Assembly: GCF_030384885.1 (NCBI RefSeq)
Contig: NZ_CP128613.1
Direction: 5' to 3' (one strand)
From: Escherichia coli
GTDB taxonomy: Bacteria > Pseudomonadota > Gammaproteobacteria > Enterobacterales > Enterobacteriaceae
DNA length: 64,000 nt
Shown: positions 16,471-64,000 of the stretch, one piece after another
Layout: the number at the start of each line of letters is the position of its first letter
How positions within the stretch are numbered: the stretch's first letter is position 1
Made by a program: the position numbers and the translations under genes
The notes under the pieces: model-generated
Told to the model about the DNA's origin: nothing
Databases searched by the model: none
Seen by the model: the letters and a program-made list of their open reading frames with translations, nothing else

Positions 16471-17691
<1,221 letters not shown>

Positions 17692-17769
17692 TCACCACAT
17701 CAACCAGGCAACATGCCCGACTTGTTGAATGCAATAAACAGAAGGAAAAAACAGGGAGGAGAAAAGAAG

Positions 17770-17845
17770 TGGTGCTGATAGGCAGATTCGAACTGCCGAC
17801 CTCACCCTTACCAAGGGTGCGCTCTACCAACTGAGCTATATCAGC
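17770..17845 (-). tRNA. thrT: tRNA-Thr
   Basis: Reverse complement reads GCTGATATAGCTCAGTTGGTAGAGC...CCA; 76 nt. Confidence 0.9.
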
Positions 17846-17851
17846 ACATCT

Positions 17852-17926
<75 letters not shown>

Positions 17927-18042
17927 ATCCTGGAACTCGGCTACCTGATTTTCATTCTGCACTGAATATCGAGAGAAGCTCTCTTTATTCGAGCCGGTAA
18001 GCGAACTTATCGTCTCGGGCTACGCCATCGCGTGGCCGAAAT

Positions 18043-18127
<85 letters not shown>

Positions 18128-18135
18128 GGACTTGA

Positions 18136-18211
<76 letters not shown>

Positions 18212-18572
18212 ATCAAGTAGCGCGCATTCTATGGAGACATGCGAGTTCATGCAACTAAAAAATTGCATAATTTGTTTTATTGGTCACATTTTATGCGACG
18301 CGATGAAGAAACAGTCGAACAGAGGGCAAATTAGCACACTTTTTCAACATCATTGTTCTCAACAATGCGCTCCTTCTAAAGCGCAATTCTTTTTATCAGA
18401 TGGAATATCTGTCACATTGCTTTTCAACGATAGCTTCCTGGGAGAGATTTTTTCTTATTATTCCTCCCCATCTGGTGTTACCCTCCTGCCCATTAACCCA
18501 TTCAACAGAACTGTGACGCGCCATGGCAAATATCGTTTTGCCGATAGAGCTATGACCGCCAGAAACATGCTT

Positions 18573-19523: not shown

Positions 19524-19526
19524 TTT

Positions 19527-19550
19527 AAAGGGGAGCTAATGCTCCCCTTT
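19527..19550. terminator. Bidirectional hairpin between convergent coaA and birA
   Basis: Inverted repeat aaggggagc / gctcccctt with taat loop, lying between the two stop codons. Confidence 0.55.
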
Positions 19551-19551
19551 C

Positions 19552-20517
19552 TTATTTTTCTGCACTACGCAGGGATATTTCACCGCCCATCCAGGGTTTT
19601 ATTATTCCATCCTGCTCAAGCAATAAAGCGCCTTGTTTGTCTATTCCGCGTGAAATGCCAAATATTTCTTTATCACCAATGATAAGTTTCACTGGGCGAT
19701 TAATAAAATTATCCAGTTTTTCCCAGCGCGACAGATAAGGTGCCAATCCTTCTTGCTCGAAGAGTTCCAGCGCCGCACGTAATTCACGTATTAGCATGGC
19801 CGCCAACGCATTACGATCGAGATTGATCCCAGCTTCCTGCAGCGTGATCCACCCCTGATTAACGACACTCTCTTCAACACGACGCATTGCCATGTTGATC
19901 CCGGCACCAACGACTATTTGCGCCGCATCGCCGGTTTTGCCAGTCAGCTCCACAAGAATACCTGCCAGCTTGCGATCCTGCAGATAGAGGTCATTCGGCC
20001 ATTTAACACGAACTTTATGAGCGCCCAACTTGCGTAATACTTCCGCCATCACGATACCGATAACCAGACTTAAACCAATCGCCGCAGCCGGGCCTTGTTC
20101 CAGACGCCAGAACATCGACAAATATAAGTTTGCGCCAAAAGGTGAAAACCATTTCCGACCTCGGCGACCACGTCCTGCCTGCTGGTATTCAGCAACGCAG
20201 GCATCACCCGATTTAAGCTCTCCGATACGATCAAGAAGATACTGATTCGTGGAGTCAATAACTGGCAGCACGGCTACACTACCGCTATCCAGCTGACTCA
20301 ATATCTGTTCAGCATTAAGTAACTGGATGGGCTCAGGCAGGCTGTATCCTTTACCCGGAACGGTAAAGACATCAACGCCCCAGTCACGCAGTGTTTGAAT
20401 ATGTTTATTAATGGCCGCCCGGCTCATTCCTAACGTTTCACCCAGCTGCTCACCAGAGTGAAATTCGCCATTCGCTAATAGCGTGATTAATTTTAGCGGA
20501 ACGGTATTATCCTTCAT
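19552..20517 (-). CDS. birA: Biotin-protein ligase / biotin operon repressor
   Basis: 321-aa product [43 protein letters not shown]... (N-terminal HTH plus ligase domain). Confidence 0.95.
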
Positions 20518-21542
20518 GAAATCGTCTCCACTGCGCTAACTTCACCTGATGTACCAATAAAGCGAACTTCTGGCTCAAGCCAGACATTAAATTTTTCACC
20601 CACTTTCTGTCTTACATGATGTGCCAGCTGCACAATATCTTCGCTTTTTGCATTGCCTTCATTAATGAGAACTAACGCCTGTTGACGGTGTACCGCAGCC
20701 CCACCAATTTGTGTTCCTTTTAGCTGGCACTGATCGATAAGCCAACCAGCGGCCAGTTTTACTGAACCATCCGTCTGGGGATAATTTGGTGCTGTTGGAA
20801 ATTGTGCCAGTAATGCTTTAGCCGTTTCGGCAGATACAACAGGGTTTTTGAAGAAACTACCGGCATTGCCATTCACTTTTGGATCAGGGAGTTTGGTGGT
20901 GCGCATATGACACACCGCATCAAATACTTGCTGTGGCGTTACGGTTGTAGGATCCAGACGAGTTAAGTCACCATACGTTAGTACAGGTTGCCACTCTTTT
21001 GGCAGGCGCAGACCTACGGCTACAATGGCGAAGCGGTCCTGGTATTCATGTTTAAAAATACTGTCGCGATAGCCAAAACGGCACTCTTTGGCAGTTAAGC
21101 GCACTTGCTTGCCTGTCGCCAGTTCAACACAGTCAACATAAGCGCAAACTCGCTGTAATTCTACGCCATAAGCACCAATATTCTGGATAGGTGATGAGCC
21201 GACACAACCAGGAATTAACGCCAGATTTTCCAGACCTGGCATACCTTCCTGCAAAGTGTATTTTACCAGGCGATGCCAGTTTTCTCCGGCTCCTACATGT
21301 AAATACCACGCATCAGGTTCATCATGAATTTCGATACCTTTGATCCGGTTGATGATCACCGTGCCGCGATAGTCTTCCAGAAAAAGTACATTACTTCCTT
21401 CACCCAGAATAAGAACGGGTTGCCCTTCTGCGGTTGCATGCTGCCAGGCATTGAGTAGTTGTTGTTCGTCTTCGGCACATACAATGTGCTGAGCATTATG
21501 ATCAATGCCAAATGTGTTCCAGGGTTTTAAGGAGTGGTTCAT
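20514..21542 (-). CDS. murB: UDP-N-acetylenolpyruvoylglucosamine reductase
   Basis: 342-aa product [34 protein letters not shown]...; 4-nt overlap with birA. Confidence 0.95.
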
Positions 21543-27926: not shown

Positions 27927-29715
27927 AGACTGTCTCATAATCTTTGTCGAACAGGTTGGCTATTTTACCACGAACTGTCAGGTGAGAGGTGACCGGATAC
28001 GCAACCGCAAGATCCCACAAGCTCACACCGCCCATTTTCACGGTTTGATACGGCCAGGAGGAGTAATCCTTATCATAGCGAGTGCCTAAATACTGATAAG
28101 TAATACCCCAGTCGAAGTCATACAACTGCCAGTCGAGCTGGTATTTCACCTGCTGTTTAGCACGGCGTAACAACGGCGTGTCGGTAATTGCATTGCGCGC
28201 ATCGACATAATCATAACTCACAGTATGCGTCAGTGGTCCGGTATCAAAATTGGCGGTCGCCTCGACGCCCTTAATTCGCGCTTTCCCTTCGTTATAGTAT
28301 TTCAGGGTGTGATCATCGTAATCGATCAAGTCACTGACATCGTTACGATATCCGGAAATACGCCAGTTCACCCCAGCGGTTAAGCCTTCAAACGCGCCTT
28401 CCCACTGTTTGCTTTTCTCAGGTTCCAGATTTGGATTTCCGTAGAAGCCATACAGTTGTCCAAGATTTGGTGCCTTATAAGATGTCCCGTAGGAAGCAAT
28501 GAAGCGATAGCCTTCGATGAATTCCCAACCAGCGCTGGTTTGCCAGGTTCCATGACGACCAAACTGTGAGTTATCGTCGCTGCGTGCTGCGCCTTCAAAG
28601 GTAAAATCGCCGACTTGTTGCAGCCCGGTCAGATAGATGCCGGTATTACGTTGATCATATCCATCCTCAACATAACCTGTACCCGGCGTCGTAGTCTGTT
28701 TCTGCCAGTCGACACCCGCACCAATACTACCGTGACCAACGATGACATTGTTTGCCCACTGGACGGTGTATTGCTTCATCTCATCAAGCGTCGCCGACGA
28801 ATCATAACGACCATAATGGGGATCGTAGTTGTAATCTTTGCTATGGCTATAGCTGGTAATGAGTTGTGATTTAATCAGTTCGCCGTTATAGCGCAGCCCG
28901 GCGTCCCAACTTTGGCTATAGAGTTTACGGGTATCGAGCAACGGTGAGCCGGGAGAATAATATGCGTCATAATTGGTACGGTTATCATAGCCATAGCCGC
29001 GCACAAAACCGCTCCAGACATCAGTAAAGTTATGCTCCAGCGCGCCATAAAGCGTTTTACTTAAAAAACCATCGTTATCTGGCTGAGCTTGCGTTCCGGT
29101 ATTACCATAGGCAACAACATCATAACCATGAGTATGGGCATAATCGCCCAACAGCGTTACCCGTGTCTTATCTCCCAGTTGTTGCTGTGTAGAAACATCA
29201 TAGTTCTGATAGTTATTGCTTCCCCACCCTGCTGAAATTTCCGTTCCGGGTTGATCGCGCGTCGTGATGATATTCACGACCCCACCTATTGCATCGGAAC
29301 CATAGACGGCGGAGCGCGGCCCACGGATATATTCAACACGCTGGACAAGCGCAATAGGGAACTGGCTAAGGTCGGCAGAACCACTCACCCCCGCCAGATT
29401 CAGGCGTACGCCATCAATTAACACCAACACATGACTGGCATTTGTACCGCGAATAAAAATAGAAGAGAGTTGACCTGAACCGCCGTTTTGGGTGATATCG
29501 ACACCCGGAAGACGGCGCAGCACATCATTGACCGAGGTCGACTGCCAGCGGTCGATATCCTGACGCGTCACAACGGTGGTTGGTGCAAGCACAGTGCTGC
29601 GCGGCTGTTCAAAACGGTTAGCAGTAACGACGAGAGTATCCGGGCTGGTATCCTGTGCCCAAGCGGAAAATGCCGTGACGGAACACGCCGTCAGCAGCGA
29701 AGCTTTTTTAATCAT
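27871..29715 (-). CDS. btuB: TonB-dependent vitamin B12 outer-membrane transporter
   Basis: 614-aa product starting [35 protein letters not shown] (TonB box DTLVVTA) and ending in an aromatic residue (..SGSYTF). Confidence 0.95.
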
Positions 29716-29955: not shown

Positions 29956-30083
29956 GAGTGGATGCTACAGGTTGTAACAAGTTGCTGTCCAGACGTAGCT
30001 CACAAATAGGAATACATCAAGATCTGGACATCTGATGAGCAATCCCTACAATCGCCGCGTACATTTCATTTTCAGGATACATC

Positions 30084-31184
30084 ATGACCCCCGAACACCT
30101 TCCAACAGAACAGTATGAAGCGCAGTTAGCCGAAAAAGTGGTACGTTTGCAAAGTATGATGGCGCCGTTTTCTGACCTGGTTCCGGAAGTGTTTCGCTCG
30201 CCGGTCAGTCATTACCGGATGCGTGCGGAGTTCCGCATCTGGCACGATGGCGATGACCTGTACCACATCATTTTCGATCAACAAACCAAAAGCCGTATCC
30301 GCGTGGATAGCTTCCCCGCCGCCAGTGAACTTATCAACCAGTTGATGACGGCGATGATTGCGGGTGTGCGTAATAATCCCGTTCTGCGCCACAAGCTATT
30401 CCAGATTGATTACCTCACTACGCTGAGTAATCAGGCGGTGGTTTCCCTGCTGTACCATAAAAAGCTGGATGACGAATGGCGTCAACAGGCGGAAGCTCTG
30501 CGCGATGCGTTGCGCGCACAAAATTTAAATGTGCATCTGATTGGTCGGGCAACGAAAACCAAAATCGCGCTGGATCAAGATTACATCGACGAACGTCTGC
30601 CGGTCGCAGGGAAAGAGATGATCTACCGTCAGGTAGAAAACAGTTTTACCCAGCCGAACGCGGCGATGAATATTCAGATGCTGGAATGGGCGCTGGACGT
30701 CACCAAAGGCTCAAAAGGCGATTTACTGGAGCTGTACTGCGGCAACGGTAACTTCTCATTAGCCCTGGCGCGCAATTTTGATCGGGTATTAGCCACCGAA
30801 ATCGCCAAGCCTTCGGTCGCTGCCGCGCAATACAACATTGCCGCTAACCATATTGATAACGTCCAAATTATTCGTATGGCGGCAGAAGAATTTACTCAGG
30901 CGATGAATGGTGTGCGCGAATTTAATCGCCTGCAAGGGATCGACTTAAAGAGTTATCAGTGCGAAACCATTTTTGTCGACCCACCGCGCAGCGGTCTGGA
31001 CAGTGAAACCGAGAAAATGGTGCAGGCGTATCCACGTATTCTGTATATCTCCTGCAATCCGGAAACGTTATGCAAGAATCTGGAAACATTAAGCCAGACG
31101 CACAAGGTTGAACGTCTGGCTCTGTTTGATCAGTTCCCCTACACGCACCATATGGAGTGCGGCGTACTACTGACCGCGAAGTAA
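30084..31184 (+). CDS. trmA: tRNA (uracil54-C5)-methyltransferase
   Basis: 366-aa product [33 protein letters not shown]... Confidence 0.95.
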
Positions 31185-31187
31185 AAT

Positions 31188-31219
31188 CTATGCCGGATGC
31201 GCCAGCATCCGGCATGATA
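31188..31219. terminator. Bidirectional hairpin (REP-like) between convergent trmA and yijD
   Basis: Inverted repeat atgccggatgc / gcatccggcat with gcca loop, directly after the trmA stop. Confidence 0.5.
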
Positions 31220-31223
31220 CCGA

Positions 31224-31583
31224 TTACTCAGCAACTTCCTGCTTACGGTTACGCATCTTCGCGCCAATCCAGAACACCATAATGACGGACAGTACTGCCG
31301 GGAAGAAGTTAGAGCCGATATCCGGATATTCCGCACGAACTACCGTGCTGTACAGCAGAACGCCGAGAATAAAACAGGCAGCTGCCAGACCCGGCAAGCC
31401 TACCGGCATAGTGCGATTAAGATAACGTTGATGCAGGCAGTAAACTGTCAGCACCAGGGAAATAATGGGGAATACAGAAAATGGCACAATGGAGCTAAAC
31501 AGCGCTGCGAAAGTACCATTAATCGATAAGCCAGCCACCAGCGCCAGCAGCAGCGTACCTCTATCTTGATTTGCTTGTTTCAT
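31224..31583 (-). CDS. yijD: Inner-membrane protein YijD (DUF1422)
   Basis: 119-aa hydrophobic product [29 protein letters not shown]...; start overlaps the fabR stop by 1 nt. Confidence 0.88.
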
Positions 31584-32230
31584 TACTCGTCCTTCACATT
31601 TCCCGGAATAATTGCGGTTTTCTCTTGTTCACGGCGATACCAGTAATAAGCCCCTTTCGAAATCATTCGCAGTTGCAGTACCAGTCGCTCTTCTAATTGC
31701 CGACGTTGTTCGACGCCGACGTCCAACGCCTCGGCACCCGCACTGAAGACAATCGTCACCATGGCTTCGGCTTGCGCTTCAGTAAACGCACGCGGCATAT
31801 GGTTTTCGAGTTCCAGATAGTCCGCAAGTTCCGCAATGAAGTGCTGAATTTCACGCGCAACGGCGGCACGAAACGCAGCGGAGGTGCCGGAGCGTTCCCG
31901 CAATAATAACCGGAAGGCGTTAGGATTATTACCGATGAACTCCATAAATGTGGAGACCGAGGTGCGGATCACACTCCCGCCTTTGGCGATACGCTGACGC
32001 GCCTGGCGCATGAGTTGGCGTAGCATTAAACCGCTCTCATCAACCATGGTCAGACCCAGTTCGTCTACGTCGCGGAAATGCCGATAAAAAGAGGTGGGAG
32101 CAATGCCCGCTTCACGCGCCACTTCACGCAAACTCAGGCTGGCGAAGCTGCGTTCAGCACTTAATTGGCTAAATGCGGCTTCCACCAACGAACGGCGGGT
32201 TTTTTCTTTTTGTTGCGCTCTTACGCCCAT
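31583..32230 (-). CDS. fabR: TetR-family repressor of unsaturated fatty-acid synthesis
   Basis: 215-aa product from [20 protein letters not shown]... with N-terminal TetR HTH. The longer ORF to 32326 is an alternative start that cannot be excluded. Confidence 0.85.
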
Positions 32231-32564
32231 CACGATGTCTGAATCCTTGCCAAAAGTACTGCTGGCACTATACCAGAGAATGAACATACTGGATTGCTCC
32301 AGTGTTGTGAATGAACCGTAACGCAATAAAACATATTTACTGCAATTCTTTGGCTGGTTCTTTTACGAACATCGGAAACCTGCCGCTTAAACGGTGAGTA
32401 TTGGCGATAAAAATCCAATAAAACGTTCAAGGCAAAAGTAAGAAACAGACAAAGCAAAGGCCGCTCACGATATAGCCAGATAAATGACGGGGATCAATTG
32501 GCTTACCCGCGATAAAATGTTACCATTCTGTTGCTTTTATGTATAAGAACAGGTAAGCCCTACC

Positions 32565-33965
32565 ATGCCACATTCCTACGATTACGATGCCATAGTAATA
32601 GGTTCCGGCCCCGGCGGCGAAGGCGCTGCAATGGGCCTGGTTAAGCAAGGTGCGCGCGTCGCAGTTATCGAGCGTTATCAAAATGTTGGCGGCGGTTGCA
32701 CCCACTGGGGCACCATCCCGTCGAAAGCTCTCCGTCACGCCGTCAGCCGCATTATAGAATTTAATCAAAACCCACTTTACAGCGACCATTCCCGACTGCT
32801 CCGCTCTTCTTTTGCCGATATCCTTAACCATGCCGATAACGTGATTAATCAACAAACACGTATGCGTCAGGGATTTTACGAACGTAATCACTGTGAAATA
32901 TTGCAGGGGAACGCTCGCTTTGTTGACGAGCATACGTTGGCGCTGGATTGCCCGGACGGCAGCGTCGAAACACTAACCGCTGAAAAATTTGTTATTGCCT
33001 GTGGTTCTCGCCCTTATCATCCAACAGATGTTGATTTCACCCATCCACGCATTTACGACAGCGACTCAATTCTTAGCATGCACCACGAACCGCGCCATGT
33101 ACTTATCTATGGTGCTGGAGTGATCGGCTGTGAATATGCGTCGATCTTCCGCGGTATGGATGTAAAAGTAGATCTGATCAATACCCGCGATCGCCTGCTG
33201 GCATTTCTCGATCAAGAGATGTCAGATTCTCTCTCCTATCACTTCTGGAACAGTGGTGTAGTGATTCGTCACAACGAAGAGTACGAGAAAATCGAAGGCT
33301 GTGACGACGGTGTGATCATGCATCTGAAGTCGGGTAAAAAACTGAAAGCTGACTGTCTGCTCTATGCCAACGGTCGCACCGGTAATACCGATTCGCTAGC
33401 GTTACAGAACATTGGGCTGGAAACTGACAGCCGCGGACAACTTAAAGTCAACAGCATGTACCAGACCGCACAGCCGCACGTTTACGCGGTGGGCGACGTG
33501 ATTGGTTATCCGAGCCTGGCGTCGGCGGCCTATGACCAGGGGCGCATTGCCGCGCAGGCGCTGGTGAAAGGCGAAGCCACCGCACATCTGATTGAAGATA
33601 TCCCTACCGGTATTTACACCATCCCGGAAATCAGCTCTGTGGGCAAAACCGAACAGCAGCTGACCGCGATGAAAGTGCCATATGAAGTGGGCCGCGCCCA
33701 GTTCAAACATCTGGCACGCGCACAAATCGTCGGCATGAACGTGGGCACGCTGAAAATTTTGTTCCATCGGGAAACAAAAGAGATTCTGGGCATTCACTGC
33801 TTTGGCGAGCGCGCTGCCGAAATTATTCATATCGGTCAGGCGATTATGGAACAGAAAGGTGGCGGCAACACTATTGAGTACTTCGTCAACACCACCTTTA
33901 ACTACCCGACGATGGCGGAAGCCTATCGGGTAGCCGCGTTAAACGGTTTAAACCGCCTGTTTTAA
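32565..33965 (+). CDS. sthA: Soluble pyridine nucleotide transhydrogenase
   Basis: 466-aa flavoprotein [36 protein letters not shown]... with GxGxxG motif. Confidence 0.95.
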
Positions 33966-34865
33966 CACTTTATCGAAATGGCCATCCATTCTTGCGCGGA
34001 TGGCCTCTGCCAGCTGCTCATAGCGGCTGCGCAGCGGTGAGCCCGGACGATAAACCAGGCCAATAGTGCGGCGTGGTTCCGGCTTAATACACGGCAAATA
34101 AACAACCCCATCGCGTTTGCGCTCCGGCGGCACAGCCAGTGCAGGCAGTAAAGTGATCCCGCTACCTGCCGCCACCATGTTGCGCAGAGTTTCCAGGCTG
34201 GTCGCGCGGAAGTGTGTATCTTCATCCGCCCCGGCTTCAAAGCAGAAACCCATTGCCTGATCGCGCAAACAGTGACCATCTTCCAGCATCAGCAGTTTTT
34301 CCCCTGCCAGATCGGCCATTGGTACGCATTCGCGGTTCGCCCACGGGTGATCTTCATAGATAGCCAGCAACATTGGCTCATCAAACAACGGCACTTCAAT
34401 GAATGCTTCGCTCTCTTTCACCAACGCGAGGATCACGCAATCGAGTTTGCCACTGTCCAGTTGCGCCAGTAACTGGTGGGTCTGTGCTTCATGCAGATAC
34501 ATTTCCAGCTTTGGAAAGGTCTGGTGCAGCATCGGGATAATATGTGGTAGCAGGTACGGTCCGACCGTGGGAATCAAACCAATATGCAGCGGCCCGGACA
34601 TTGTCTCGCCCTGCTGGCTTGCCATCTCTTTAAGGACTTTCACCTCACGCAGCACGGTACGCGCCTGATCCACCAGCAGCATTCCCGCCTGGGTGAATAA
34701 CACTTTACGGCTGGTCCGCTCCAGCAACATCACGCCCAGCTCATCTTCCAGCTTACGAATTTGCCCGCTAAGCGTCGGCTGGCTAACGTGGCAGGAATCT
34801 GCCGCACGCCGAAAATGACGGTGTTCAGCCAATGCCACCAGGTACTCAAGATCACGAATATTCAT
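33948..34865 (-). CDS. oxyR: LysR-family peroxide-sensing transcriptional regulator
   Basis: 305-aa product starting [40 protein letters not shown]; 3' end overlaps the sthA 3' end by 18 nt (convergent). Confidence 0.95.
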
Positions 34866-34960
34866 TATCCATCCTCCATCGCCACGATAGTTCATGGCGA
34901 TAGGTAGAATAGCAATGAACGATTATCCCTATCAAGCATTCTGACTGATAATTGCTCACA

Positions 34961-35073
34961 GAAACGGAGCGGCACCTCTTTTAACCCTTGAAGTCACTGC
35001 CCGTTTCGAGAGTTTCTCAACTCGAATAACTAAAGCCAACGTGAACTTTTGCGGATCTCCAGGATCCGCTTTT
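34961..35073 (+). ncRNA. oxyS: OxyS small regulatory RNA
   Basis: Reads GAAACGGAGCGGCACCTCTTTTAACCCTTGAAGTCACTGCCCGTTTCGAGAGTTTCTCAACTCG...GCGGATCTCCAGGATCCGCTTTTTTTT, matching OxyS including its terminal hairpin and U-run; divergent from oxyR. The 3' end is approximate. Confidence 0.88.
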
Positions 35074-35116
35074 TTTTATTCTACAGGCCCACAGCAAGAG
35101 AGCCTGATAGTAACAG

Positions 35117-36400
35117 TTACTCAATCCGATCTTTGACAATAAAGAAGTAACACAGCGCCCCGGTGAACGTCACACAGGCCGCGATAACCAGCGCCAGATT
35201 AAACGAGTGCGTGGTATCCACTACCCAACCGGTTACGATCGGAGCAAAGGAAGCAAAAACAAAACTGCCAAAGTTTTGAATCCCGGCGATGGAAGCCACT
35301 TTTGTTTCTGACACCATCACCTGCACCAGTCCCCATGCAGATGTTCCCGCGAAATGCACGCAGAACAGCGCCATTGAGATAAACGCTACAGCCTGGGCTG
35401 GCGAGGAGGATTGCACTACCAGCAACGTGCCTAATGCCGACATCATCAAACCGCAGACAATAGCCGTTTTACGCGTCTTCGCCAGGTCGTAGCCTTTTTT
35501 CGCCAGCCGATCGACAACAATACCGTTAACCCACATCCCGACCGCCGCCGCGAGGAAAGGAATCGCCGCCACCCAACCGGTTTTCGCCAGACTGAAGCCT
35601 TGCTCGGCTTGTAAATAACCGGGTAACCACGCGATGTAGAGCCAACCGGTATAATTGACGCCAGAGAAACCTAAAATCATCCCCCAGGTTGTCCGATGCT
35701 TAAACAGCGCCAGCCACTCGCTAAATTGTAATTGTGGACGCGGTTTAACCGGCGCGGAGAGATAGGTCCGTTCTTCGTCGGTCAGGACAAACTGCGCCCG
35801 GTTGCGATACCACGCGTACCAACAGATCCCAACCAGAATCCCCGCCACGCCGATGATGACGAACATTGCCCGCCAGCCCCATGCCAGCTGCATCAATACA
35901 AGAGCAGGAGGCGCAATAGCCTGACCGATAACGGTAGATGAGTTAAAAATCCCCAGCGCCGTGCCGCGTTCTTTTTGCGCATACCAGTCGGTGATCGACT
36001 TTACTCCCGCAGGCATAAATGGCGCTTCGCCAATACCCAGACCGATACGCATTAAAATAAAGTGGCTAAAAGAATTAACCATTCCTGTTAATGCCTGCAT
36101 TAATGACCAGAATATTAAGCCTGCGCCTAAAACTATTCGTGGGCCAAAGCGGTCTAGCAAAATACCGGAAGGGAGTTGTGAAAAACCATAAGACAGAGAA
36201 AATGCAGAAAGCAAAACGCCAAATTCTGTCGCCGATAATCCTAACTCGCCACGAATCGCTTCGCCTGCCACGCTCAATGACGAACGGTCGAGGAAATTAA
36301 CGATCCCCGCCATAAATAATAAAACCAGCGTTACTGTCTGAATACGACGAATCCGTTGCGGTTTATTACCCGCAACACTGGTTGACACATCAACGTCCAT
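35117..36400 (-). CDS. MFS transporter, anion:cation symporter (ACS) family, sugar-acid (hexuronate/aldonate) type
   Basis: 427-aa polytopic membrane protein with N-terminal ...LLFMAGIVNFLDRSSLSVAG... typical of DgoT/ExuT/GudP-like transporters; 66 nt downstream of the dehydratase gene on the same strand. Not present at this position in K-12 as I recall it. Confidence 0.8.
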   Translation of the reverse strand: MDVDVSTSVAGNKPQRIRRIQTVTLVLLFMAGIVNFLDRSSLSVAGEAIRGELGLSATEFGVLLSAFSLSYGFSQLPSGILLDRFGPRIVLGAGLIFWSLMQALTGMVNSFSHFILMRIGLGIGEAPFMPAGVKSITDWYAQKERGTALGIFNSSTVIGQAIAPPALVLMQLAWGWRAMFVIIGVAGILVGICWYAWYRNRAQFVLTDEERTYLSAPVKPRPQLQFSEWLALFKHRTTWGMILGFSGVNYTGWLYIAWLPGYLQAEQGFSLAKTGWVAAIPFLAAAVGMWVNGIVVDRLAKKGYDLAKTRKTAIVCGLMMSALGTLLVVQSSSPAQAVAFISMALFCVHFAGTSAWGLVQVMVSETKVASIAGIQNFGSFVFASFAPIVTGWVVDTTHSFNLALVIAACVTFTGALCYFFIVKDRIE

Positions 36401-36466
36401 TTTTAGCTCCTTGAGCGGAATTAATCGATTTGCTGACTATTCAGAAAATAATTAAGCGAACCGTTA

Positions 36467-37681
36467 TTACCAGTTCCACAATGTGCCATCTTCCAGTCGT
36501 GCGACGGGGAGATACGCCGGGTCATACGGATATTTCGCCGCCAGTTTCTCATCGAAAGAAATACCCAGCCCCGGTTCATCGCCTGGGTGCATATAACCTT
36601 CATCGAAGCGCCAGCTGTGCGGGAAGACTTCAAGCATTTGTTCGGAATAGCCCATGTACTCCTGAACACCAAAGTTTGGCACCCAGAGGTCAAAATGCAG
36701 CGCCGCCGCATGACAAACAGGCGATAAATCTGAAGGGCCATGCGAACCGGTACGTACCTGATAAAGCGATGCAAAATCGGCAATCCGTCGCATCCCGGTA
36801 ATGCCGCCTGCATGGGTAATCGTCGTGCGAATATAGTCAATCAGCTGCTCTTCGATTAACTGCTTGCAGTCCCAGATACTGTTAAACACTTCACCGACCG
36901 CAATCGGCGTCACAGTATGCTGGCGAATCAGACGAAAACATTCCTGGTTCTCGGCAGGCGTCGGATCTTCCATCCAGAACAGGCGGTAATCCTCTATGCT
37001 CTTCCCAAAGCGTGCCGCTTCGATAGGAGTCAGGCGATGGTGCATGTCATGCAACAGATGTTCGTTAAAACCGAACTTATTACGCACCGCTTCAAATAAC
37101 TTCGGTGTAAAATCGAGATACTTTTCTGAAGACCACAAATGCTCTTCCGGCCACAGGCCTTTGGTTGCCGGTTCATACGCCAGTCCTTTGCCCTTCGCCA
37201 GGCCATAAGTGGTTTGCATACCCGGTACACCGCACTGCACACGAATCGCCTTAAAGCCCATCTGCTGGTGCTTTGCATAGTCTTCAAGGACTTCATCAAT
37301 CGTGCGCCCGGTGGTGTGGCAATAAACCATCACGCCTTCACGAGAAGCCCCACCAAGCAGTTGATACAATGGCATATTTGCCGCTTTGGCTTTGATATCC
37401 CACAACGCCATATCAATGGCAGAAATGGCCGACATCGTGACGGGGCCACGTCGCCAGTAAGCACCTTTATAAAAGAATTGCCAGATATCTTCAATACGGC
37501 TGGCATCGCGGCCAATTAATTGTGGACAAAGATGATCTTTCAGATAAGAAGCGACCGACAATTCGCGACCATTTAATGTGGCATCTCCCAATCCACAAAG
37601 TCCGCTTGCAGTGGTTATTTTAAGCGTAACGAAATTACGTCCTGGGCAAGTAACAAAAACATCTGCAGCAATAATTTTCAT
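36467..37681 (-). CDS. Enolase-superfamily dehydratase, RspA / D-mannonate dehydratase (ManD)-like
   Basis: 404-aa product from [43 protein letters not shown]..., recognised as a close relative of starvation-sensing protein RspA; AGGAG Shine-Dalgarno 8 nt before the ATG at 37681. The ORF-track extension to 37741 is rejected. Confidence 0.82.
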
Positions 37682-38165
37682 TATTGCAATCTCCTGTGTT
37701 GTAAATAGACGCTTCAAACTTAATTTTACGCCTACTACCATACAAGAGAGAAAGAGCGATTATTCAACCGTGATCACATTAAAAATAAAAATTTCCGCCG
37801 AGGAGCCCCCCCCCCTCAAAAACCACCTGAATAATTAACCATCATCGTTAAAACAACACGTTAAATAATCACATAACAAACTCCATTAATCATTAAAAAT
37901 GAGCGCAGCAATAGAAATGAATTATATTCAATTAATTAAAATATGTATTGATTGATGTATTGAAAATATGATTTTCATGGGGAGAGTGAAGGTAAAGAAG
38001 ACGCAAGAATAAAAAGGAATATGACAAATAATAGTTCTGGTTGGGCGTTAAATTTAAGGTCACCAGAATGCTGACAAATTTCTGCCTGAGGCAGTCCGCC
38101 TACGTAGTGTCGCTACTTTATAGGCGTGGTAAGCTCCCCATTTTCAGGGGAGCAATATAAACCAA

Positions 38166-39539
38166 TTACCCCAACCGCGCCTGCGCAAAAGCAATCGCCT
38201 GCGCCACCTGCTGCGGTGAGACGCCGCCTTTTGCCGCACGCTTGTCGAGGCACGATTGCAGCGACAGAATCGGATAGACATCTTCGCCAATCACCTGACT
38301 GAATTTCTGCAACTCACTGAGCGGCAGTTCTTCCAGCGGTTTGCCCTGACGAATGGCTTCCACCACCGCTTCACCCACAATATGATGCGCCTCGCGGAAA
38401 GGTACGCCTTTCGCCACCAGGTAATCCGCCAGTTCAGTGGCGTTGGCGTAACCCTGCTGAGCCGCTTCCTGGCAACGCGGACGTTTCACCTGAATCCCGT
38501 CCAGCACCAGCGCCGCCATATGCAGGCAGTCCAGCCAGGTATCGAGCGCGTCGAACAGACCTTCTTTATCTTCCTGCATATCTTTGTTATAGGCCAGCGG
38601 CAGACCTTTCAGCGTCATCATCATGCCGGTCAACGCGCCCTGAACACGACCGCATTTACCCCGAATCAGCTCCAGCGCATCCGGGTTTTTCTTCTGCGGC
38701 ATTAATGATGAACCGGAAGTAACACGATCAGAAAGCTCCACAAAACCCGCTTCGCCGGTGTTAAAGAAAATCAGATCTTCGGCAAAACGCGACAAATGCA
38801 CCATACCGATAGCGGCGGCAGAAAGCAGTTCCAGCACGTGGTCGCGGTCAGAAACGCTGTCGAGACTGTTACGGGTCGCCGAGGCAAAGCCCAGCCAGCC
38901 TGCTAACTGTTCACGGTCGATTTCATAGGCCGTTCCCGCCAGTGCGCCACAGCCTAACGGGCTGACATCCAGACGCTTAAGCGCATCCTGCAAACGGCTT
39001 TCATCACGCGCCAGCATCTCAACATAGGCCAGGCACCAGTGCGCAAACGTCACCGGCTGGGCGCGTTGCAGGTGAGTGTAACCAGGCATTACCGCGTCCT
39101 GATTATTCTGCGCGGTCTCGACCAGAGCGGATTGTAACTGTCGGTTAGCCGTCAGCAACTCGCTAACGGTATCCTTGCACCACAGTTTCAGGTCAGTCGC
39201 TACCTGATCATTACGGCTACGCCCGGTATGCAATTTTTTGCCTAACTGGCCCACTTTGTCGATCAGTTTGCCTTCCACCCAGCTATGGATATCTTCGGCG
39301 TCGCTTTCAAGAATTTGTTGTGGCCTGGCGCGAACATCTTCCAGCAGCACATTGAGCGCCTCTTCCAGTTGCACCTGTTCTTCTGCGGTTAACACGCCTA
39401 CCGTTACCAGCGCTTTGGACCAGGCCACAGAGCCAACAATATCCTGCTCCGCCAGACGGTAATCAAAGCGCAGTGAGTCGTTGAATTGTTTAAACCGTTG
39501 ATCTGCTGCCTGGGTAAAACGCCCGCCCCAAAGTGCCAT
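38166..39539 (-). CDS. argH: Argininosuccinate lyase
   Basis: 457-aa product [42 protein letters not shown]... Confidence 0.96.
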
Positions 39540-39599
39540 AACTCTGTTTCCTTATTTTGAAATTCAATGCCAGAAAGCTACGTCTCCGGCCAACAAAAC

Positions 39600-40376
39600 T
39601 TAAGCTAAAATCCGCGTACCCATCGGCATACCGTTAAACAGTGCCGGAAGCTGTTCCGCATGACGCCAGGAGGCAATATCTACCGGGCGACCCAGCGTGC
39701 GCGCAGCGTCCAGCGCCGCGTTCACTTTCACTATCATGCCGTCAGTAATAATGCCCTGCTCAATCAGTTGTTCTGCTTTCGCTGCGGTCATTTCGGCAAT
39801 ACGTTGCCCTTTGCCGTCGAGAATACCGCTGACATCAGAGAGCAAAATCAGATCCGCGCCCAGCGTTGCCGCCAGCGCCGTCGCCGCCTGGTCAGCATTG
39901 ACGTTCATCAGTTGCCCTTCGTCCGTTACGCCAATGGAGCTGACCACTGGTAGATAACCGTTTTCCAGCAACGTGTTGATAAGCTTAGGCGAACCTGGCT
40001 GCGCCAGTCCAACATGGCCTAACTCTTCATCGAGCTGGGTCACTTTTACGCTGTCGCCGTCACCGAGAAACAAACCTACGGCTGCAATCTGATGTTTCTT
40101 CGCCCATGCCAGCAGGGTTTTATTTGCCGTTCCCGCCAGCGCTCCGGTGATAATGTCTATCTGATCCGCAGGCGTCACCCGCAGGCCGTTTTTCTTTTTC
40201 ACCGGCAGATTCAGTCCTTTCATCAGCTCATCCACCACGCAGCCGCCGCCGTGGACAATCACCAGCGGACGCTGATGTGACTCGCGATAATTCACCAGGG
40301 CGCTAAACAGACGTTCCAGCGCCTCTTCACTATCCAGCAGTACGCCGCCCAGTTTGATAATTAATGGATTCATCAT
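39600..40376 (-). CDS. argB: Acetylglutamate kinase
   Basis: 258-aa product from [24 protein letters not shown]...; the 11-codon upstream extension is rejected. Confidence 0.92.
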
Positions 40377-40383
40377 TGCACCC

Positions 40384-41388
40384 CTAAATAAGAGACTGCG
40401 TTTCCGCATAGCCGAAACGAATATTGGCGCACTGTACCGCTTGTGCTGCCGCGCCTTTCAATAAGTTGTCTTCGGTCGCCACAATAATCAGATGTTCCCC
40501 CTGAACGGCAAAACCGATATCGCAGAACGGCAGCCCGACGACATTTTTCAGCGCCGGAACGCCTTTGTCATACAACCGTACCAGCGGTTTATGGGCATAC
40601 GCCTGCTGTAACGCTTGCGCGACTTGCGCCTGGTTCACGCCAGGCTTCAGGCGGCAGGTAATGGTTTCGAGAATGCCGCGCGGGAAATTGCCCAGATGCG
40701 GGGTAAAAATAACGTCAGCACCGAGATGCGTGGCGATCTCCGGCTGGTGGCGATGGGTAAAGACACCATACGGTTGCAGGCTAACTTCACAAAAACTATT
40801 TGAAATCGCTGCCTTACGTCCTGCTCCGCTCACACCACTGGTGGCGTTGATAACCGGCCACTGATTGAGGTCAAGAAGATCGGCATCAATCAACGGTTTC
40901 AGCGCCAATTGCGCCGCCGTCGGATAACAGCCAGGCACCGCAATTAAGTTCGCTTCTTTTAATTTATGACCGCACCACTCCGCCAGACCGTAAGCTGCCT
41001 GTTCCAACAGTTCCGGGTATTGATGGCTAAAGCCGTAATATTTTTCATAGAAGGTGGCGTCGTTAACACGAAACGCGCCGGAAAGGTCGAACACCACACA
41101 GCCCGCTTCAAGAAATTGTGGCGCTAAATCGTGACTAACTTCATGGGCAGTAGCAAGAAACACCACGTCCACCCCTGGGCTAAACTCACTGATATCCGAC
41201 ATCGGCTGCAACGGCAGATCAACGATGCCTTTTAGCTGCGGATGCAAATCGGAGATTAACTTTCCCGCATCATTGCTTTGCGCTGAAACAGTCAAAGCGG
41301 TTATGTTCATATGCGGATGGCGATTTACATAGGTCACTAGCTCTGCGCCAGCGTAACCGCTGGCACCCACAATCAGCGTATTCAACAT
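40384..41388 (-). CDS. argC: N-acetyl-gamma-glutamyl-phosphate reductase
   Basis: 334-aa product [43 protein letters not shown]... Confidence 0.95.
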
Positions 41389-41541
41389 CGGGGCTATTCA
41401 CCTTCTTATGTCTGGTTGCCTGGTTAAACGTAAAACATTCACCTTACGGCTGGTGGGTTTTATTACGCTCAACGTTAGTGTATTTTTATTCACAAATACT
41501 GCATGAATATTGATACTATCATGACCAGAGGTGTGTCAACA
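41389..41541. promoter_or_regulatory. Divergent argE / argCBH control region with ArgR operator (ARG boxes)
   Basis: A/T-rich spacer between divergent argC and argE containing ...tttttattcacaaatactgcatgaatattgatactatcatga..., with TGAAT/ATTCA-type ARG-box repeats; assignment follows the known argECBH bipolar operon. Confidence 0.6.
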
Positions 41542-42693
41542 ATGAAAAACAAATTACCGCCATTTATCGAGATTTACCGTGCTCTGATTGCCACACCTTC
41601 AATAAGCGCCACGGAAGAGGCACTCGATCAAAGCAATGCAGATTTAATCACTCTGCTGGCGGACTGGTTTAAAGATTTGGGCTTCAATGTGGAAGTGCAG
41701 CCCGTGCCGGGAACTCGCAACAAATTTAATATGCTGGCAAGTACCGGACAGGGAGCTGGCGGTTTGCTGCTGGCGGGGCATACCGATACGGTGCCATTTG
41801 ATGACGGCCGCTGGACGCGCGATCCGTTTACGCTGACGGAGCATGACGGCAAGCTTTACGGCTTAGGCACCGCCGACATGAAAGGCTTTTTTGCGTTTAT
41901 CCTCGATGCACTACGCGATGTCGACGTCACGAAACTGAAAAAACCGCTCTACATTCTGGCGACTGCCGATGAAGAGACCAGTATGGCAGGAGCGCGTTAT
42001 TTTGCCGAAACTACCGCCCTGCGCCCGGATTGCGCCATCATTGGCGAACCGACGTCGCTGCAACCGGTACGCGCGCATAAAGGCCATATCTCGAACGCCA
42101 TCCGTATTCAGGGCCAGTCGGGGCACTCCAGCGATCCAGCACGCGGAGTTAACGCGATCGAATTGATGCACGACGCCATCGGGCATATTTTGCAATTGCG
42201 CGATAATCTGAAAGAACGTTATCACTACGAAGCATTTACCGTGCCATACCCTACGCTCAACCTCGGGCATATTCACGGTGGCGATGCATCTAACCGTATT
42301 TGCGCTTGCTGTGAGTTGCATATGGATATTCGTCCGTTGCCAGGCATGACACTCAATGAACTTAATGGTTTGCTCAACGATGCATTGGCTCCGGTGAGCG
42401 AACGCTGGCCGGGTCGTCTGACGGTCGACGAGCTGCATCCACCGATCCCTGGCTATGAATGCCCACCGAATCATCAACTGGTTGAAGTGGTTGAGAAATT
42501 GCTCGGAGCAAAGACCGAAGTAGTGAACTACTGTACCGAAGCGCCGTTTATTCAGACGTTATGCCCGACGCTGGTGCTGGGACCTGGCTCAATTAATCAG
42601 GCTCATCAGCCTGATGAATACCTGGAGACACGGTTTATCAAGCCCACCCGCGAACTGATCACCCAGGTGATTCACCATTTCTGCTGGCATTAA
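41542..42693 (+). CDS. argE: Acetylornithine deacetylase
   Basis: 383-aa product from [43 protein letters not shown]...; the upstream ATG at 41503 is rejected. Confidence 0.92.
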
Positions 42694-60057: not shown

Positions 60058-62292
<2,235 letters not shown>

Positions 62293-62565
62293 TTATAATT
62301 GAATTAATCCACGGATGCGATAGTTGAGATCTTACATATTGTTGGTTAAAGAGATGTAGATCAAATTGATCGTAATTAAGACTTTTTGATTATGTCCGAT
62401 TTCGGACAAATGCTTTATAAAAAAGGTTTTAGCTTCGTAAGCTTCAAGAAATGAGGGAGAAAACAAGGCTGACTACCTTATTTTCTCACTCGCATTTCGA
62501 GGCAGCATTTTGTGCTCTGTTTAAAATTTGTGATCACAGTGTGATTTTCACAAAAGGCGCACTAT

Positions 62566-63459
<894 letters not shown>

Positions 63460-63499
63460 TTACCTCATCAATCGCTTGTAGTTATATGTTGTGTTGTGC

Positions 63500-63545
63500 A
63501 CATCTATCCGTTTAGACGTCCAGATGTAAAGATGAAGGAAAAGCT
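63500..63545 (-). promoter_or_regulatory. Putative MetJ operator (tandem met-box-like octamers) in the metF promoter
   Basis: Minus strand reads acatctgg-acgtctaa-acggatag-atgtgcac, degenerate repeats of the AGACGTCT met box, 45-90 nt upstream of the metF ATG. Confidence 0.5.
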
Positions 63546-63808
63546 GAAGGGCGTCAACCGAAAAATGACCAATGATGGTGAGGAAAAATCAGGGAAGATG
63601 AAAAAAATTCAGGATAAAGGCCAAAGTTCCTCGTACCTGAACATGTGGAATATACCTCATTTAAGATGATATTTATTTGTTTAATTATTTTTTCTATTAA
63701 CCGGTGCAACGAGTGTTAAAGCGTGTAATTTTAGGATTATATCAATAGTCACGGTTATACAAACAGTGATAATTTATGAAATAATTTTATTTACCAGAGG
63801 AATAGCGC

Positions 63809-64000
63809 ATGTATCTTAATACTCAAGTTCAATATAATAAGTTAAATAAAGATGAAAAAAAGATCCTGTTGTTACAAAAGCTAGCCCATTTAACTGATTT
63901 TACTTTTGACAGAATAGAGACATTTTCAGCATTTGGACAATCTACTGAAACAGGTGTTTTTAAATATAAAGATGGCAATGAATTTGTTGTTGTCCCCGGG
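63809..64000 (+). CDS. Hypothetical protein, N-terminal fragment (runs off the window); AT-rich, probably accessory
   Basis: ATG at 63809 with AGAGGA Shine-Dalgarno 8 nt upstream; open for 64 codons to the window end (MYLNTQVQYNKLNKDEKKILLLQKLAHLTDFTFDRIETFSAFGQSTETGVFKYKDGNEFVVVPG); base composition and codon usage are markedly AT-rich relative to the rest of the window. No family recognised. Confidence 0.4.
   Translation, partial: MYLNTQVQYNKLNKDEKKILLLQKLAHLTDFTFDRIETFSAFGQSTETGVFKYKDGNEFVVVPG

What the first reader, a model, noticed from the sequence alone, without database searches (positions are those of the whole stretch)
63660..64000. Abrupt AT-rich junction and partial unknown ORF upstream of metF, where K-12 has metL
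About 200 bp upstream of the metF ATG the composition changes sharply (from roughly 63660) to very AT-rich DNA. A plus-strand ORF with a good Shine-Dalgarno starts at 63809 and runs off the window; its codon usage is atypical for E. coli and its N-terminus matches no family I recognise. In K-12 the 3' end of metL should lie about 350 bp upstream of metF on the same strand as metF, but no GC-normal minus-strand coding frame enters from the window edge. This looks like the edge of horizontally acquired DNA inserted in the metL-metF spacer; its cargo (possibly a defence or restriction locus) lies beyond the window.
Basis: partly seen in the sequence, partly recalled or inferred. Interest (0 to 1): 0.55.

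Follow-up and report, generated by a model that had tools for sequence, protein, structure and literature searches.

The report
Clade-specific gene block beside metF
The window ends at the edge of a 12.7-kb block of extra genes that one unusual Escherichia lineage carries between metF and metL; it is an annotated, lineage-typical region, and its first gene encodes an uncharacterised protein that may be a stray toxin-immunity gene.

Summary
Sequence shared with all E. coli ends at window 63615/63616, 160 bp upstream of metF. AT-rich DNA (30% GC) follows. The ORF at 63809 is the start of an annotated 324-aa gene (WP_000281214.1).

The window comes from strain 2013C-4282, a member of Escherichia cryptic clade I. 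There, a 12,661-bp segment replaces the 192-bp K-12-type spacer, and metL lies beyond it. The segment has three parts:
- the 324-aa gene;
- a 60%-GC block with a MocR/PdxR-type regulator, alanine racemase and a broken SHMT gene;
- the already described "GR31" set of three 5'-nucleotidases and a Tsx-like porin.

It has no integrase, tRNA, IS element or end repeats, and no protein matches a defence-system model. So it is accessory DNA, but neither a fresh insertion nor a defence or restriction locus. The same gene sits at this site in E. albertii, some E. fergusonii and Superficieibacter.

The 324-aa protein has a divergent formylglycine-generating-enzyme (FGE) fold and is under strong purifying selection. 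Its Clostridial relatives lie in arrays of toxin-immunity genes or are fused to such domains. My best guess, by inference only, is an orphan immunity or toxin-neutralising protein. Interest is low to moderate.

The parts
62566..63456 (-). metF (methylenetetrahydrofolate reductase), the conserved core gene on the left of the junction
   Evidence: ORF list. Annotated as metF, WP_000007523.1.
63457..63615 (-). Conserved metF 5' region, kept in all E. coli. It includes a degenerate tandem met-box-like array at about 63498-63537 (AGACGTCC at 63514).
   Evidence: 5425 genomes match up to query base 216, which is window 63615. Alignments to K-12-type and GR31-type alleles. Met-box scan. Reading it as the MetJ operator rests on my own knowledge.
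63615..63616 (.). Homology breakpoint. This is the left boundary of the 12,661-bp clade-I segment (L001 20217..32877). Three different alleles diverge here.
   Evidence: BLAST of the K-12-type spacer (L002) and the GR31-type spacer (L003) against L001.
63616..63808 (+). AT-rich (31% GC) leader of the 324-aa gene. It carries sigma-70-like hexamers at 63746-63785 and a Shine-Dalgarno sequence, AGAGGAA, at 63796-63802.
   Evidence: The promoter scan found no more matches than chance, so the promoter is only a candidate. The leader is homologous to the E. albertii leader.
63809..64000 (+). First 64 codons of a 324-aa gene (WP_000281214.1; full gene at L001 20410..21384). It encodes a divergent FGE-fold (C-type-lectin-like) protein.

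Best explanation
**Shown.**

The window ends 385 bp into a 12,661-bp accessory segment. In Escherichia cryptic clade I this segment fills the metF-metL interval in place of the 192-bp REP-containing K-12 spacer. It is a mosaic of three blocks:
- a single low-GC gene (36.5% GC) for a 324-aa cytoplasmic protein;
- a 59-60% GC block with a MocR/PdxR-type regulator, alanine racemase and serine hydroxymethyltransferase (SHMT, a pseudogene in this strain);
- the common 'GR31' block (5'-nucleotidase, 375-aa unknown protein, two more 5'-nucleotidases, Tsx-like porin). About a third of E. coli genomes carry this block in part or whole.

The interval is a multi-allelic hot spot. Its contents appear to be exchanged between Escherichia lineages by homologous recombination in the conserved flanks, not by a mobile-element mechanism.

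The ORF that runs off the window encodes a full-length, selectively constrained member of a widespread ~325-aa family. The family has a divergent formylglycine-generating-enzyme / C-type-lectin fold.

**Inferred.**

This protein is most likely a toxin-neutralising (immunity-type) protein kept as an orphan. It would protect the cell against a toxin delivered by competitors. It could do so by binding the toxin, as shown for the FGE-like T6SS immunity protein Tsi3. Given its many invariant polar residues, it might instead enzymatically undo the toxin's effect. Being AT-rich, it is probably transcribed from its own weak promoter, and possibly silenced.
For: **Structure of the locus.**
- The window matches NZ_CP027579.1.
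- Segment boundaries and three allelic forms.
- Gene content.
- The right-hand 7.4 kb occurs in whole or in part in 1844 of 5426 genomes. The left-hand 5.2 kb occurs in 2.
- GR31 (metL..metF) is described in PMC12928451.
- There are no tRNAs, end repeats or Rfam hits.

**Lineage.**
- Core genes are 96.7% identical to nearly all E. coli, and at least 99% identical to only 3 genomes.
- The strain is listed as clade I in PMC10100065.
- The exact protein is on record in 549 blocks. The contigs listed in full all show the same gene order.

**Synteny elsewhere and exchange.**
- E. albertii has metF-gene-metL.
- An E. fergusonii record has the same order as clade I.
- Superficieibacter has a frameshifted copy at the same site.
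- The E. fergusonii record switches from 93.7% to 97.3% identity to clade I at the gldA/yijF boundary.

**The protein.**
- dN/dS is 0.07.
- The AlphaFold model has pLDDT 92.
- A family profile hits FGE and ToxD chains at E about 7e-6.

**Link to immunity.**
- In an Oscillospiraceae genome the homologue sits in a same-strand array. The array holds SUKH-3, DUF1963, NADAR, Imm51, DUF4259, Imm32 and a 2065-aa fusion of Imm68, Imm33, SMI1, SUKH_6, DUF4261 and SUFU.
- 48 of 80 species-level loci have at least one such neighbour.
- Fusions exist to TPR+DUF4261 and to DUF4241.
- DUF1963, HEAT, ankyrin or LRR neighbours occur in Fusobacterium-like, Clostridium and Cytophagales loci.
- Precedent: FGE-like Tsi3 is a T6SS immunity protein (10.1101/2021.05.21.445229).
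Against: **Limits of the immunity inference.**
- It rests on guilt by association in Clostridial homologues that are only 35-39% identical to the E. coli protein.
- Those 48 loci are phylogenetically related, so they are not independent.
- The closest relatives (E. albertii, Listeria, Paenibacillus, Cohnella, Chitinophaga, Breznakiella) are solitary genes in unrelated contexts with no toxin next door.
- No toxin gene flanks the Escherichia copy.

**Features that look more like an enzyme.**
- The family is unusually conserved for a binder-type immunity protein. It is about 40% identical across phyla, with 29 invariant residues that include R109, E119, E204, E206, C209, N246, E260, K270, D273 and R319.
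- The E. coli protein has a KGG-x3-C-x2-C motif at roughly the position of the FGE catalytic cysteines (my own reading of the sequence).

**Other gaps.**
- No expression data exist.
- The promoter-like matches are no more frequent than chance.
Confidence: 0.5

Rival explanations
1. The 324-aa protein is a genuine metal-dependent enzyme of the SUMF1/EgtB/PvdO superfamily. It would act on a small molecule or protein in ordinary physiology, unrelated to inter-bacterial conflict. Its place beside metF would be incidental.
For: - Many invariant charged or polar residues and an invariant Cys209. Cys279 is conserved in 32 of 34 sequences.
- Strong purifying selection.
- About 40% identity from Escherichia to Firmicutes, Bacteroidota and Spirochaetes.
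- Solitary, housekeeping-like contexts in many genomes.
- NCBI names relatives 'SUMF1/EgtB/PvdO family nonheme iron enzyme'.
Against: - The first Cys of the C-x2-C pair is present in only 22 of 34 members.
- No DinB-type N-domain was found, as EgtB has one.
- No sulfatase or biosynthetic partner recurs in the neighbourhoods.
- The distribution is patchy within Escherichia: it is absent from 5424 of 5426 complete E. coli genomes.
- Homologues are repeatedly embedded in, or fused to, immunity-type modules.
Confidence: 0.3
2. One reading: this is the edge of a recently acquired island whose cargo is an anti-phage defence or restriction-modification locus.
For: - There is an abrupt GC drop and atypical codon usage.
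- The sequence beyond 63616 is present in only 2 of 5426 complete E. coli genomes.
Against: - The full segment is read and annotated. It holds no restriction, methylase or defence genes.
- No protein matches PADLOC.
- It has no mobility genes, tRNA or end repeats.
- The rarity reflects how rare clade I is among complete genomes.
- The same arrangement occurs in E. fergusonii, and the gene occurs in E. albertii.
Confidence: 0.04
3. The 324-aa gene works together with the downstream MocR/PdxR-type regulator, alanine racemase and SHMT as one PLP-linked amino-acid module. It could, for example, be co-transcribed with the regulator.
For: - It is on the same strand as the regulator, 81 bp upstream, with no terminator-like hairpin between them.
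- The four genes travel together in clade I and E. fergusonii.
Against: - E. albertii carries the gene alone, followed by a stem-loop that I read in the sequence and then metL.
- GC jumps from 36% to 59% at the gene boundary.
- No such neighbours occur in 80 other species.
- SHMT is a pseudogene here while the 324-aa gene stays intact.
Confidence: 0.08
4. The ORF is a decaying relic or a spurious open frame in AT-rich spacer DNA.
For: - It is a pseudogene (frameshifted) in Superficieibacter electus.
- Pfam gives only a weak hit.
Against: - Full-length copies are conserved in three Escherichia lineages with dN/dS of 0.07-0.16.
- There are 360 homologues at E<=1e-3 in the word-indexed search, and 5966 representatives in the exhaustive search.
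- The structure model is confident.
Confidence: 0.02

Closest known systems
GR31 (metL..metF genomic region) of ExPEC/APEC E. coli, described for strain BEN2908 (PMC12928451)
   Same: It occupies the same chromosomal interval and has the same right junction at the metL stop codon. The right-hand 7.4 kb (three UshA-like 5'-nucleotidases, a 375-aa unknown protein, a Tsx-like porin) is 94.6-98.9% identical.
   Different: The clade I version has an extra 5.2 kb on the metF side: the 324-aa FGE-fold gene, a MocR/PdxR-type regulator, alr and glyA. This extra part is present in only 2 of 5426 complete E. coli genomes. It replaces the ~212-bp metF-proximal spacer of GR31-bearing strains.
[quoted passage not shown]
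   Same: It has an FGE / C-type-lectin fold used outside classical FGE chemistry. The top structural relatives are the same (PvdO, FGE, EgtB). It is associated with toxin-immunity gene neighbourhoods, though in this family only for the Clostridial homologues.
   Different: - Tsi3 homologues are proteobacterial, clearly recognised as FGE domains, usually in arrays of 2-4 copies, and lie next to vgrG-tse3.
- This gene is single-copy with no T6SS or toxin neighbour.
- It gives only a 43-residue Pfam match (E 6e-4).
- Its relatives are mostly Firmicutes, Fusobacteria and Bacteroidota.
Polyimmunity loci of polymorphic toxin systems (Zhang et al. 2012, PMC3482391)
   Same: Clostridial members of the family lie in long same-strand arrays of SUKH, SMI1, Imm51, Imm32, DUF1963 and NADAR genes. 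Some are fused to DUF4261 or DUF4241 modules.
   Different: FGE-type domains are not mentioned in that paper's main text, of which the first 300,000 characters are held. The Escherichia copy is an isolated gene between two core genes, not part of an array.
Formylglycine-generating enzyme (SUMF1) and pFGE (SUMF2)
   Different: - Only about 170-187 of 324 residues superpose, with TM-scores of 0.36-0.46.
- There are about 140 extra residues.
- The Cys pair has different spacing (C-x2-C) and its first Cys is not conserved.
- I see no secretion signal in the N-terminal sequence printed; no predictor was run.
- There is no sulfatase partner.

Membership tests
FGE-sulfatase / C-type-lectin-fold superfamily (Pfam PF03781 and relatives) | The FGE-type fold | tested here: met
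FGE-sulfatase / C-type-lectin-fold superfamily (Pfam PF03781 and relatives) | A significant full-domain match to the Pfam profile | tested here: inconclusive
   Only residues 184-226 match, with i-Evalue 6e-4 and 20 bits. The family profile hits PDB FGE chains at E about 7e-6 over the same 40 residues.
Bona fide formylglycine-generating enzymes | Two conserved catalytic, copper-binding cysteines | tested here: not met
   The E. coli protein has C276-x2-C279, but position 276 is Cys in only 22 of 34 family members (S, G, Y or K otherwise). The spacing differs from the C-x4-C of FGE. The FGE spacing is from my own knowledge.
Bona fide formylglycine-generating enzymes | Association with sulfatase genes, or a secretory or periplasmic location | tested here: not met
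   No sulfatase lies in the locus or recurs in 80 other loci. I see no signal-peptide-like hydrophobic stretch in the N-terminal sequence printed; no predictor was run.
EgtB/OvoA-type sulfoxide synthases | An N-terminal DinB_2 domain that supplies part of the active site | tested here: not met
Tsi3 family (FGE-like T6SS immunity) | Encoded next to vgrG/tse3 or other T6SS genes, usually as arrays of paralogues | tested here: not met
   It is a single copy between metF and a MocR-type regulator, or between metF and metL in E. albertii. There are no T6SS genes within 20 kb.
Tsi3 family (FGE-like T6SS immunity) | Sequence homology to Tsi3 (the paper used RPS-BLAST at E < 1e-50) | not testable with these tools
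   The Tsi3 sequence (WP_032046197.1) could not be retrieved. The paper reports that domain servers readily identify an FGE domain in Tsi3 homologues, whereas this protein is barely detected. That suggests a different clade.
Immunity proteins of polymorphic-toxin / polyimmunity loci | Lies in same-strand arrays with known immunity families, or is fused to them | tested here: inconclusive
   This holds for Clostridial homologues (48 of 80 loci; fusions). It does not hold for the Escherichia gene or its closest relatives, which are solitary.
Immunity proteins of polymorphic-toxin / polyimmunity loci | A cognate toxin encoded immediately upstream, and demonstrated neutralisation | not tested
   No toxin gene was identified next to any member examined. 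Neutralisation needs an experiment.
Classical mobile genomic island | An integrase or transposase, a tRNA or att target, and flanking direct repeats | tested here: not met
   No such genes are annotated in the segment. There is no tRNA. No repeat pairs the two ends.
Known anti-phage defence systems (PADLOC-DB v2) | At least one protein matching a defence-system model | tested here: not met
   There are no hits for the eight intact island proteins or for the intact SHMT copy taken from RMDEC465.
GR31 (metL..metF region of ExPEC) | Three UshA-like nucleotidases plus a Tsx-like porin between metL and metF | tested here: met
   L001 25452..32877 is 94.6-98.9% identical to GR31-bearing strains. The gene content matches the description in PMC12928451.

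The most novel reading that the evidence does not exclude
The ~325-aa FGE-fold family (5966 representatives at E<=1e-3) would be an unrecognised, cross-phylum class of toxin-immunity proteins. It may be an enzymatic 'antidote' rather than a simple binder, given its invariant polar residues. An orphan copy would be held at the metF-metL hot spot in E. albertii, clade I and some E. fergusonii because it protects against a toxin made by other gut bacteria.
Probability: 0.35. Interest if true: 0.5.

Novelty: new member of a known kind. Interest (0 to 1): 0.25.

Why it matters
For the genome scan, this closes the question. The 'missing metL' is explained by a lineage-typical 12.7-kb accessory segment. 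There is no hidden defence island.

Three points are modestly useful:
- The metF-metL interval is a multi-allelic hot spot. It has at least four forms in Escherichia, and its contents seem to move by flank homology rather than by mobile elements.
[quoted passage not shown] Its Clostridial members sit in polyimmunity loci. If confirmed, this would extend the Tsi3 precedent (FGE fold used as an immunity scaffold) to Gram-positive toxin systems and give a testable function to thousands of 'hypothetical' proteins.

Tried and rejected
**Searches that found nothing.**
- Pfam, NCBIfam, PADLOC and PHROGs on the 324-aa protein gave only a weak 43-residue FGE motif, plus a PHROG labelled 'kinase' hitting the same motif.
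- Rfam on the whole segment found nothing.
- A tRNA scan found nothing.
- The repeat search found no repeats pairing the island ends.
- The terminator scan found none between the 324-aa gene and the regulator. Promoter-like sites were no more frequent than chance.
- A strict double met-box search with up to 3 mismatches found nothing. A looser scan found a degenerate array.

**Origin of the 60%-GC block.** A plasmid search gave only distant (66-68%) glyA matches in alpha- and beta-proteobacterial replicons. That does not identify a source.

**Gene neighbourhoods.** Paenibacillus, Chitinophaga and Breznakiella homologues, and a metagenomic homologue 54% identical to the E. coli protein, showed no conserved partner.

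**Multi-domain family hits.** NCBIfam on the large hits gave only TPR, or generic PvdO/GldK-type FGE repeats. P0281 is therefore an ordinary multi-FGE protein, not informative.

**Readings rejected.** A restriction or defence locus, a mobile island, a spurious ORF, and a bona fide FGE or EgtB enzyme. The reasons are in the membership table.

Full report
**1. The observation**

- metF lies at 62566..63456 on the minus strand and katG at 60058..62277.
- GC is 0.52 for the window, 0.40 in 63457-63615 and 0.30-0.31 from 63616 to the end.
- A megablast of 63400-64000 against 5,426 complete E. coli genomes matched 5,425 of them, but only up to query base 216 (window 63615). Two genomes continue: 2013C-4282 (NZ_CP027579.1) and RMDEC465.
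- The window is 2013C-4282 or a near-identical strain. Window 43400-64000 differs from that record by one base.
- The ATG at 63809 has AGAGGAA seven bases upstream. It opens an annotated 324-codon CDS, WP_000281214.1 'hypothetical protein'.

The only correction is that the junction is at 63615|63616, not about 63660.

**2. What lies beyond the window**

In 2013C-4282, 12,661 bp (L001 20217..32877) separate the conserved metF upstream region from the metL stop codon. This segment replaces the 192-bp REP-containing distal spacer of K-12-type genomes.

Gene order:
- the 324-aa gene (+);
- a MocR-type regulator scoring above the NCBIfam PdxR cut-off (+);
- alanine racemase (-);
- serine hydroxymethyltransferase (-), with an internal stop here but intact in RMDEC465;
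- a 5'-nucleotidase (-);
- a 375-aa 'cytoplasmic protein' (+);
- two more 5'-nucleotidases (+);
- a Tsx-family porin (+);
- then metL (-).

The composition is mosaic: 36.5% GC for the first gene, 59-60% for the MocR-alr-glyA block and 40-50% for the rest.

The right-hand 7.4 kb is common. Of 5,426 genomes, 1,844 carry part or all of it, at 87-99% identity. It corresponds to 'GR 31 metL..metF', described for APEC strain BEN2908 as a putative nucleoside-processing module (PMC12928451).

The left-hand 5.2 kb is found in only the two genomes above, even with sensitive blastn.

Three alleles (K-12-type, GR31-type, clade-I-type) diverge within a few bases of the same point upstream of metF. GR31-type and clade-I-type share the same right junction at the metL stop codon.

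There is no integrase, transposase, tRNA, end repeat or Rfam element. No protein of the segment matches PADLOC.

**3. Why it looks rare**

- Core genes in window 30000-42000 are about 96.7% identical to 5,422 genomes and at least 99% identical to only three.
- 2013C-4282 is listed among the completely sequenced strains of Escherichia cryptic clade I, and it is stx1-positive (PMC10100065).
- The exact 324-aa sequence is on record in 549 blocks of the assembly collection. All eight places listed in full, out of the 24 contigs read, show the same locus and gene order.
- TW10509 carries three consecutive protein entries for the alr, MocR-type and 324-aa proteins. That it is a clade I reference strain is my own knowledge.

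The arrangement is therefore typical of the lineage, not a strain-specific insertion.

**4. The same gene at the same site in other taxa**

- E. albertii has metF, the gene and metL, with nothing else. The alignment runs continuously through metF, the leader and the gene.
- An E. fergusonii chromosome (CP095843) has the order metF, gene, MocR, alr, SHMT, CMD, nucleotidase, 376-aa protein, metL.
- Superficieibacter electus has a frameshifted copy, an extra 221-aa ORF, a 63-bp duplicate of the metL 3' end, then the nucleotidase, the 375-aa homologue and metL.

No copy from any other Escherichia species appeared among the 80 loci kept from the scan of GTDB species representatives. A near-identical copy would have ranked near the top.

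The E. fergusonii record is 93.7% identical to clade I over ptsP-gldA. It is 97.3% identical from yijF through glyA, and 98.0% in metL. This step change is what recombination through the conserved flanks would produce.

Selection on the gene:
- Between clade I and E. albertii, dN/dS is 0.069. dS is 1.28, against 0.50 for metF.
- Between clade I and E. fergusonii, dN/dS is 0.16.

The gene is functional and constrained. Its alleles are older, or faster-evolving at silent sites, than the flanking core genes.

**5. What the 324-aa protein is**

Sequence searches give little:
- Pfam gives only a 43-residue FGE-sulfatase match (E 6e-4).
- NCBIfam gives nothing.

The family is nevertheless large:
- 360 homologues at E<=1e-3 in the word-indexed search;
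- 5,966 cluster representatives at E<=1e-3, and 275 at E<=1e-30, in the exhaustive search.

Members are about 325 aa. They occur mostly in Clostridia (Oscillospiraceae, Lachnospiraceae), Paenibacillus and Cohnella, Fusobacterium and Chitinophaga. The only Enterobacterales among the 80 loci kept are E. albertii and Superficieibacter.

An alignment of 34 members has 29 invariant columns. These include the FGE-like motifs EFVFVPG, PMLVE, EWEYLCGG..R....WG, PN.FG and KGGDGG, and a C-terminal R.

Structure:
- The AlphaFold model is confident (pLDDT 91.9, pTM 0.89).
- Foldseek ranks FGE structures first, but with TM-scores of only 0.36-0.46.
- AFDB neighbours are all uncharacterised.

It is therefore a divergent FGE / C-type-lectin-fold protein with about 140 extra residues. 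It lacks the features of FGE proper and of EgtB:
- the first Cys of its C-x2-C pair is present in only 22 of 34 members;
- no DinB domain was found;
- no sulfatase is nearby.

**6. Functional inference**

Near relatives are solitary genes with no conserved partner. The Clostridial branch is different.

- In Oscillospiraceae bacterium CE91-St43 the homologue sits in a same-strand array. The array holds SUKH-3, DUF1963, DKNYY, NADAR, Imm51, DUF4259, Imm32 and SMI1_KNR4 genes, plus a 2,065-aa fusion of Imm68, Imm33, SMI1_KNR4, SUKH_6, DUF4261 and SUFU. This is the pattern of a polyimmunity locus (Zhang et al. 2012, PMC3482391).
- 48 of the 80 species-level loci have at least one neighbour homologous to these labelled proteins. 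43 have the giant fusion and 23 have the NADAR protein. An RNA 2'-phosphotransferase is also present.
- Family members are fused to TPR+DUF4261 and to DUF4241.
- Independent lineages show DUF1963 (a Fusobacterium-like contig), HEAT, WGR and an 880-aa ankyrin protein (Clostridium), and an LRR protein (Cytophagales) next door.
- An FGE-like immunity family already exists. Tsi3 of Acinetobacter neutralises the T6SS effector Tse3 by binding (10.1101/2021.05.21.445229). The fold is also a known binding scaffold in diversity-generating retroelement variable proteins (PMC7159879).

My best-supported reading is that the Escherichia gene is an orphan immunity-type protein.

The caveats are serious:
- The association comes from homologues 35-39% identical to the E. 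coli protein, in related genomes.
- No toxin partner was identified.
- The many invariant polar residues fit an enzyme as well as, or better than, a rapidly co-evolving binder.

I put the immunity or neutraliser reading at roughly 0.4-0.5, and an unrelated enzymatic role at about 0.3.

**7. Verdict**

This is accessory DNA in the metL-metF interval, but it is not a fresh insertion and not a defence or restriction locus.
- The region is annotated in RefSeq, and its larger part is described in the literature.
- What remains open is the function of the FGE-fold family.
- Interest is low to moderate.

Noticed in passing
L001 27152..28279 (outside the window; about 7 kb beyond its end): A 375-aa 'cytoplasmic protein' with no family assignment except a weak IS1-transposase-like N-terminal match (E 4e-4). 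With the first 5'-nucleotidase it is the part of the metF-metL island that most carrier genomes retain. A 60%-identical copy lies at the same site in Superficieibacter.
   Followed up: partly
L001 23995..25254 (outside the window): The island's serine hydroxymethyltransferase has an internal stop in 2013C-4282 and is split the same way in several clade I drafts. It is intact in RMDEC465 and in E. fergusonii. Its partner alanine racemase shows a relatively high dN/dS of 0.31.
   Followed up: partly
L092 (E. fergusonii CP095843), locus 1..20975, compared with L001: Identity to clade I steps from 93.7% (ptsP-gldA) to 97.3% (yijF through glyA) and 98.0% (metL). The nucleotidase and 376-aa pair is only 88% identical. 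This looks like inter-species recombination tracts around the hot spot.
   Followed up: partly
L029 (Superficieibacter electus) 6001..8121: The FGE-fold gene is frameshifted. It is followed by two unassigned ORFs (221 and 109 aa) and a 63-bp exact duplicate, at protein level, of the metL 3' end. This is a possible scar of how blocks were added at this site.
   Followed up: no
window 30000..42000: Only 1,719 of 5,425 genomes cover at least 80% of this stretch. The part carrying manD and an MFS transporter is missing from K-12-type genomes, and some strains have other genes there (citrate-proton symporter, M20 aminoacylase). It is another variable region in the window.
   Followed up: no
L001 37827..40493 (outside the window, beyond metJ and yiiX): An ISAs1-family transposase and a group II intron reverse transcriptase/maturase (ltrA) lie where a K-12-type genome has rpmE and priA next.
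   Followed up: no
L001 26178..26956 versus 28673..29082 and 30175..31013: The three 5'-nucleotidase genes are paralogues, 70-76% identical at DNA level. The first is inverted relative to the other two.
   Followed up: no
L001 22892..22947: The convergent MocR-type regulator and alanine racemase genes overlap by 56 bp at their 3' ends as annotated.
   Followed up: no
L056 2552..3421 and 7535..8104; L102 6300..7430: The Clostridial immunity-type arrays that hold the FGE-fold homologue also carry NADAR-domain proteins and an RNA 2'-phosphotransferase (KptA/Tpt1). This hints that these loci counter ADP-ribosylating or RNA-modifying toxins.
   Followed up: no
window 62278..62565: The katG-metF intergenic region is also AT-rich (GC 0.35-0.39). 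The AT-rich stretch by itself is therefore not a marker of foreign DNA here.
   Followed up: no
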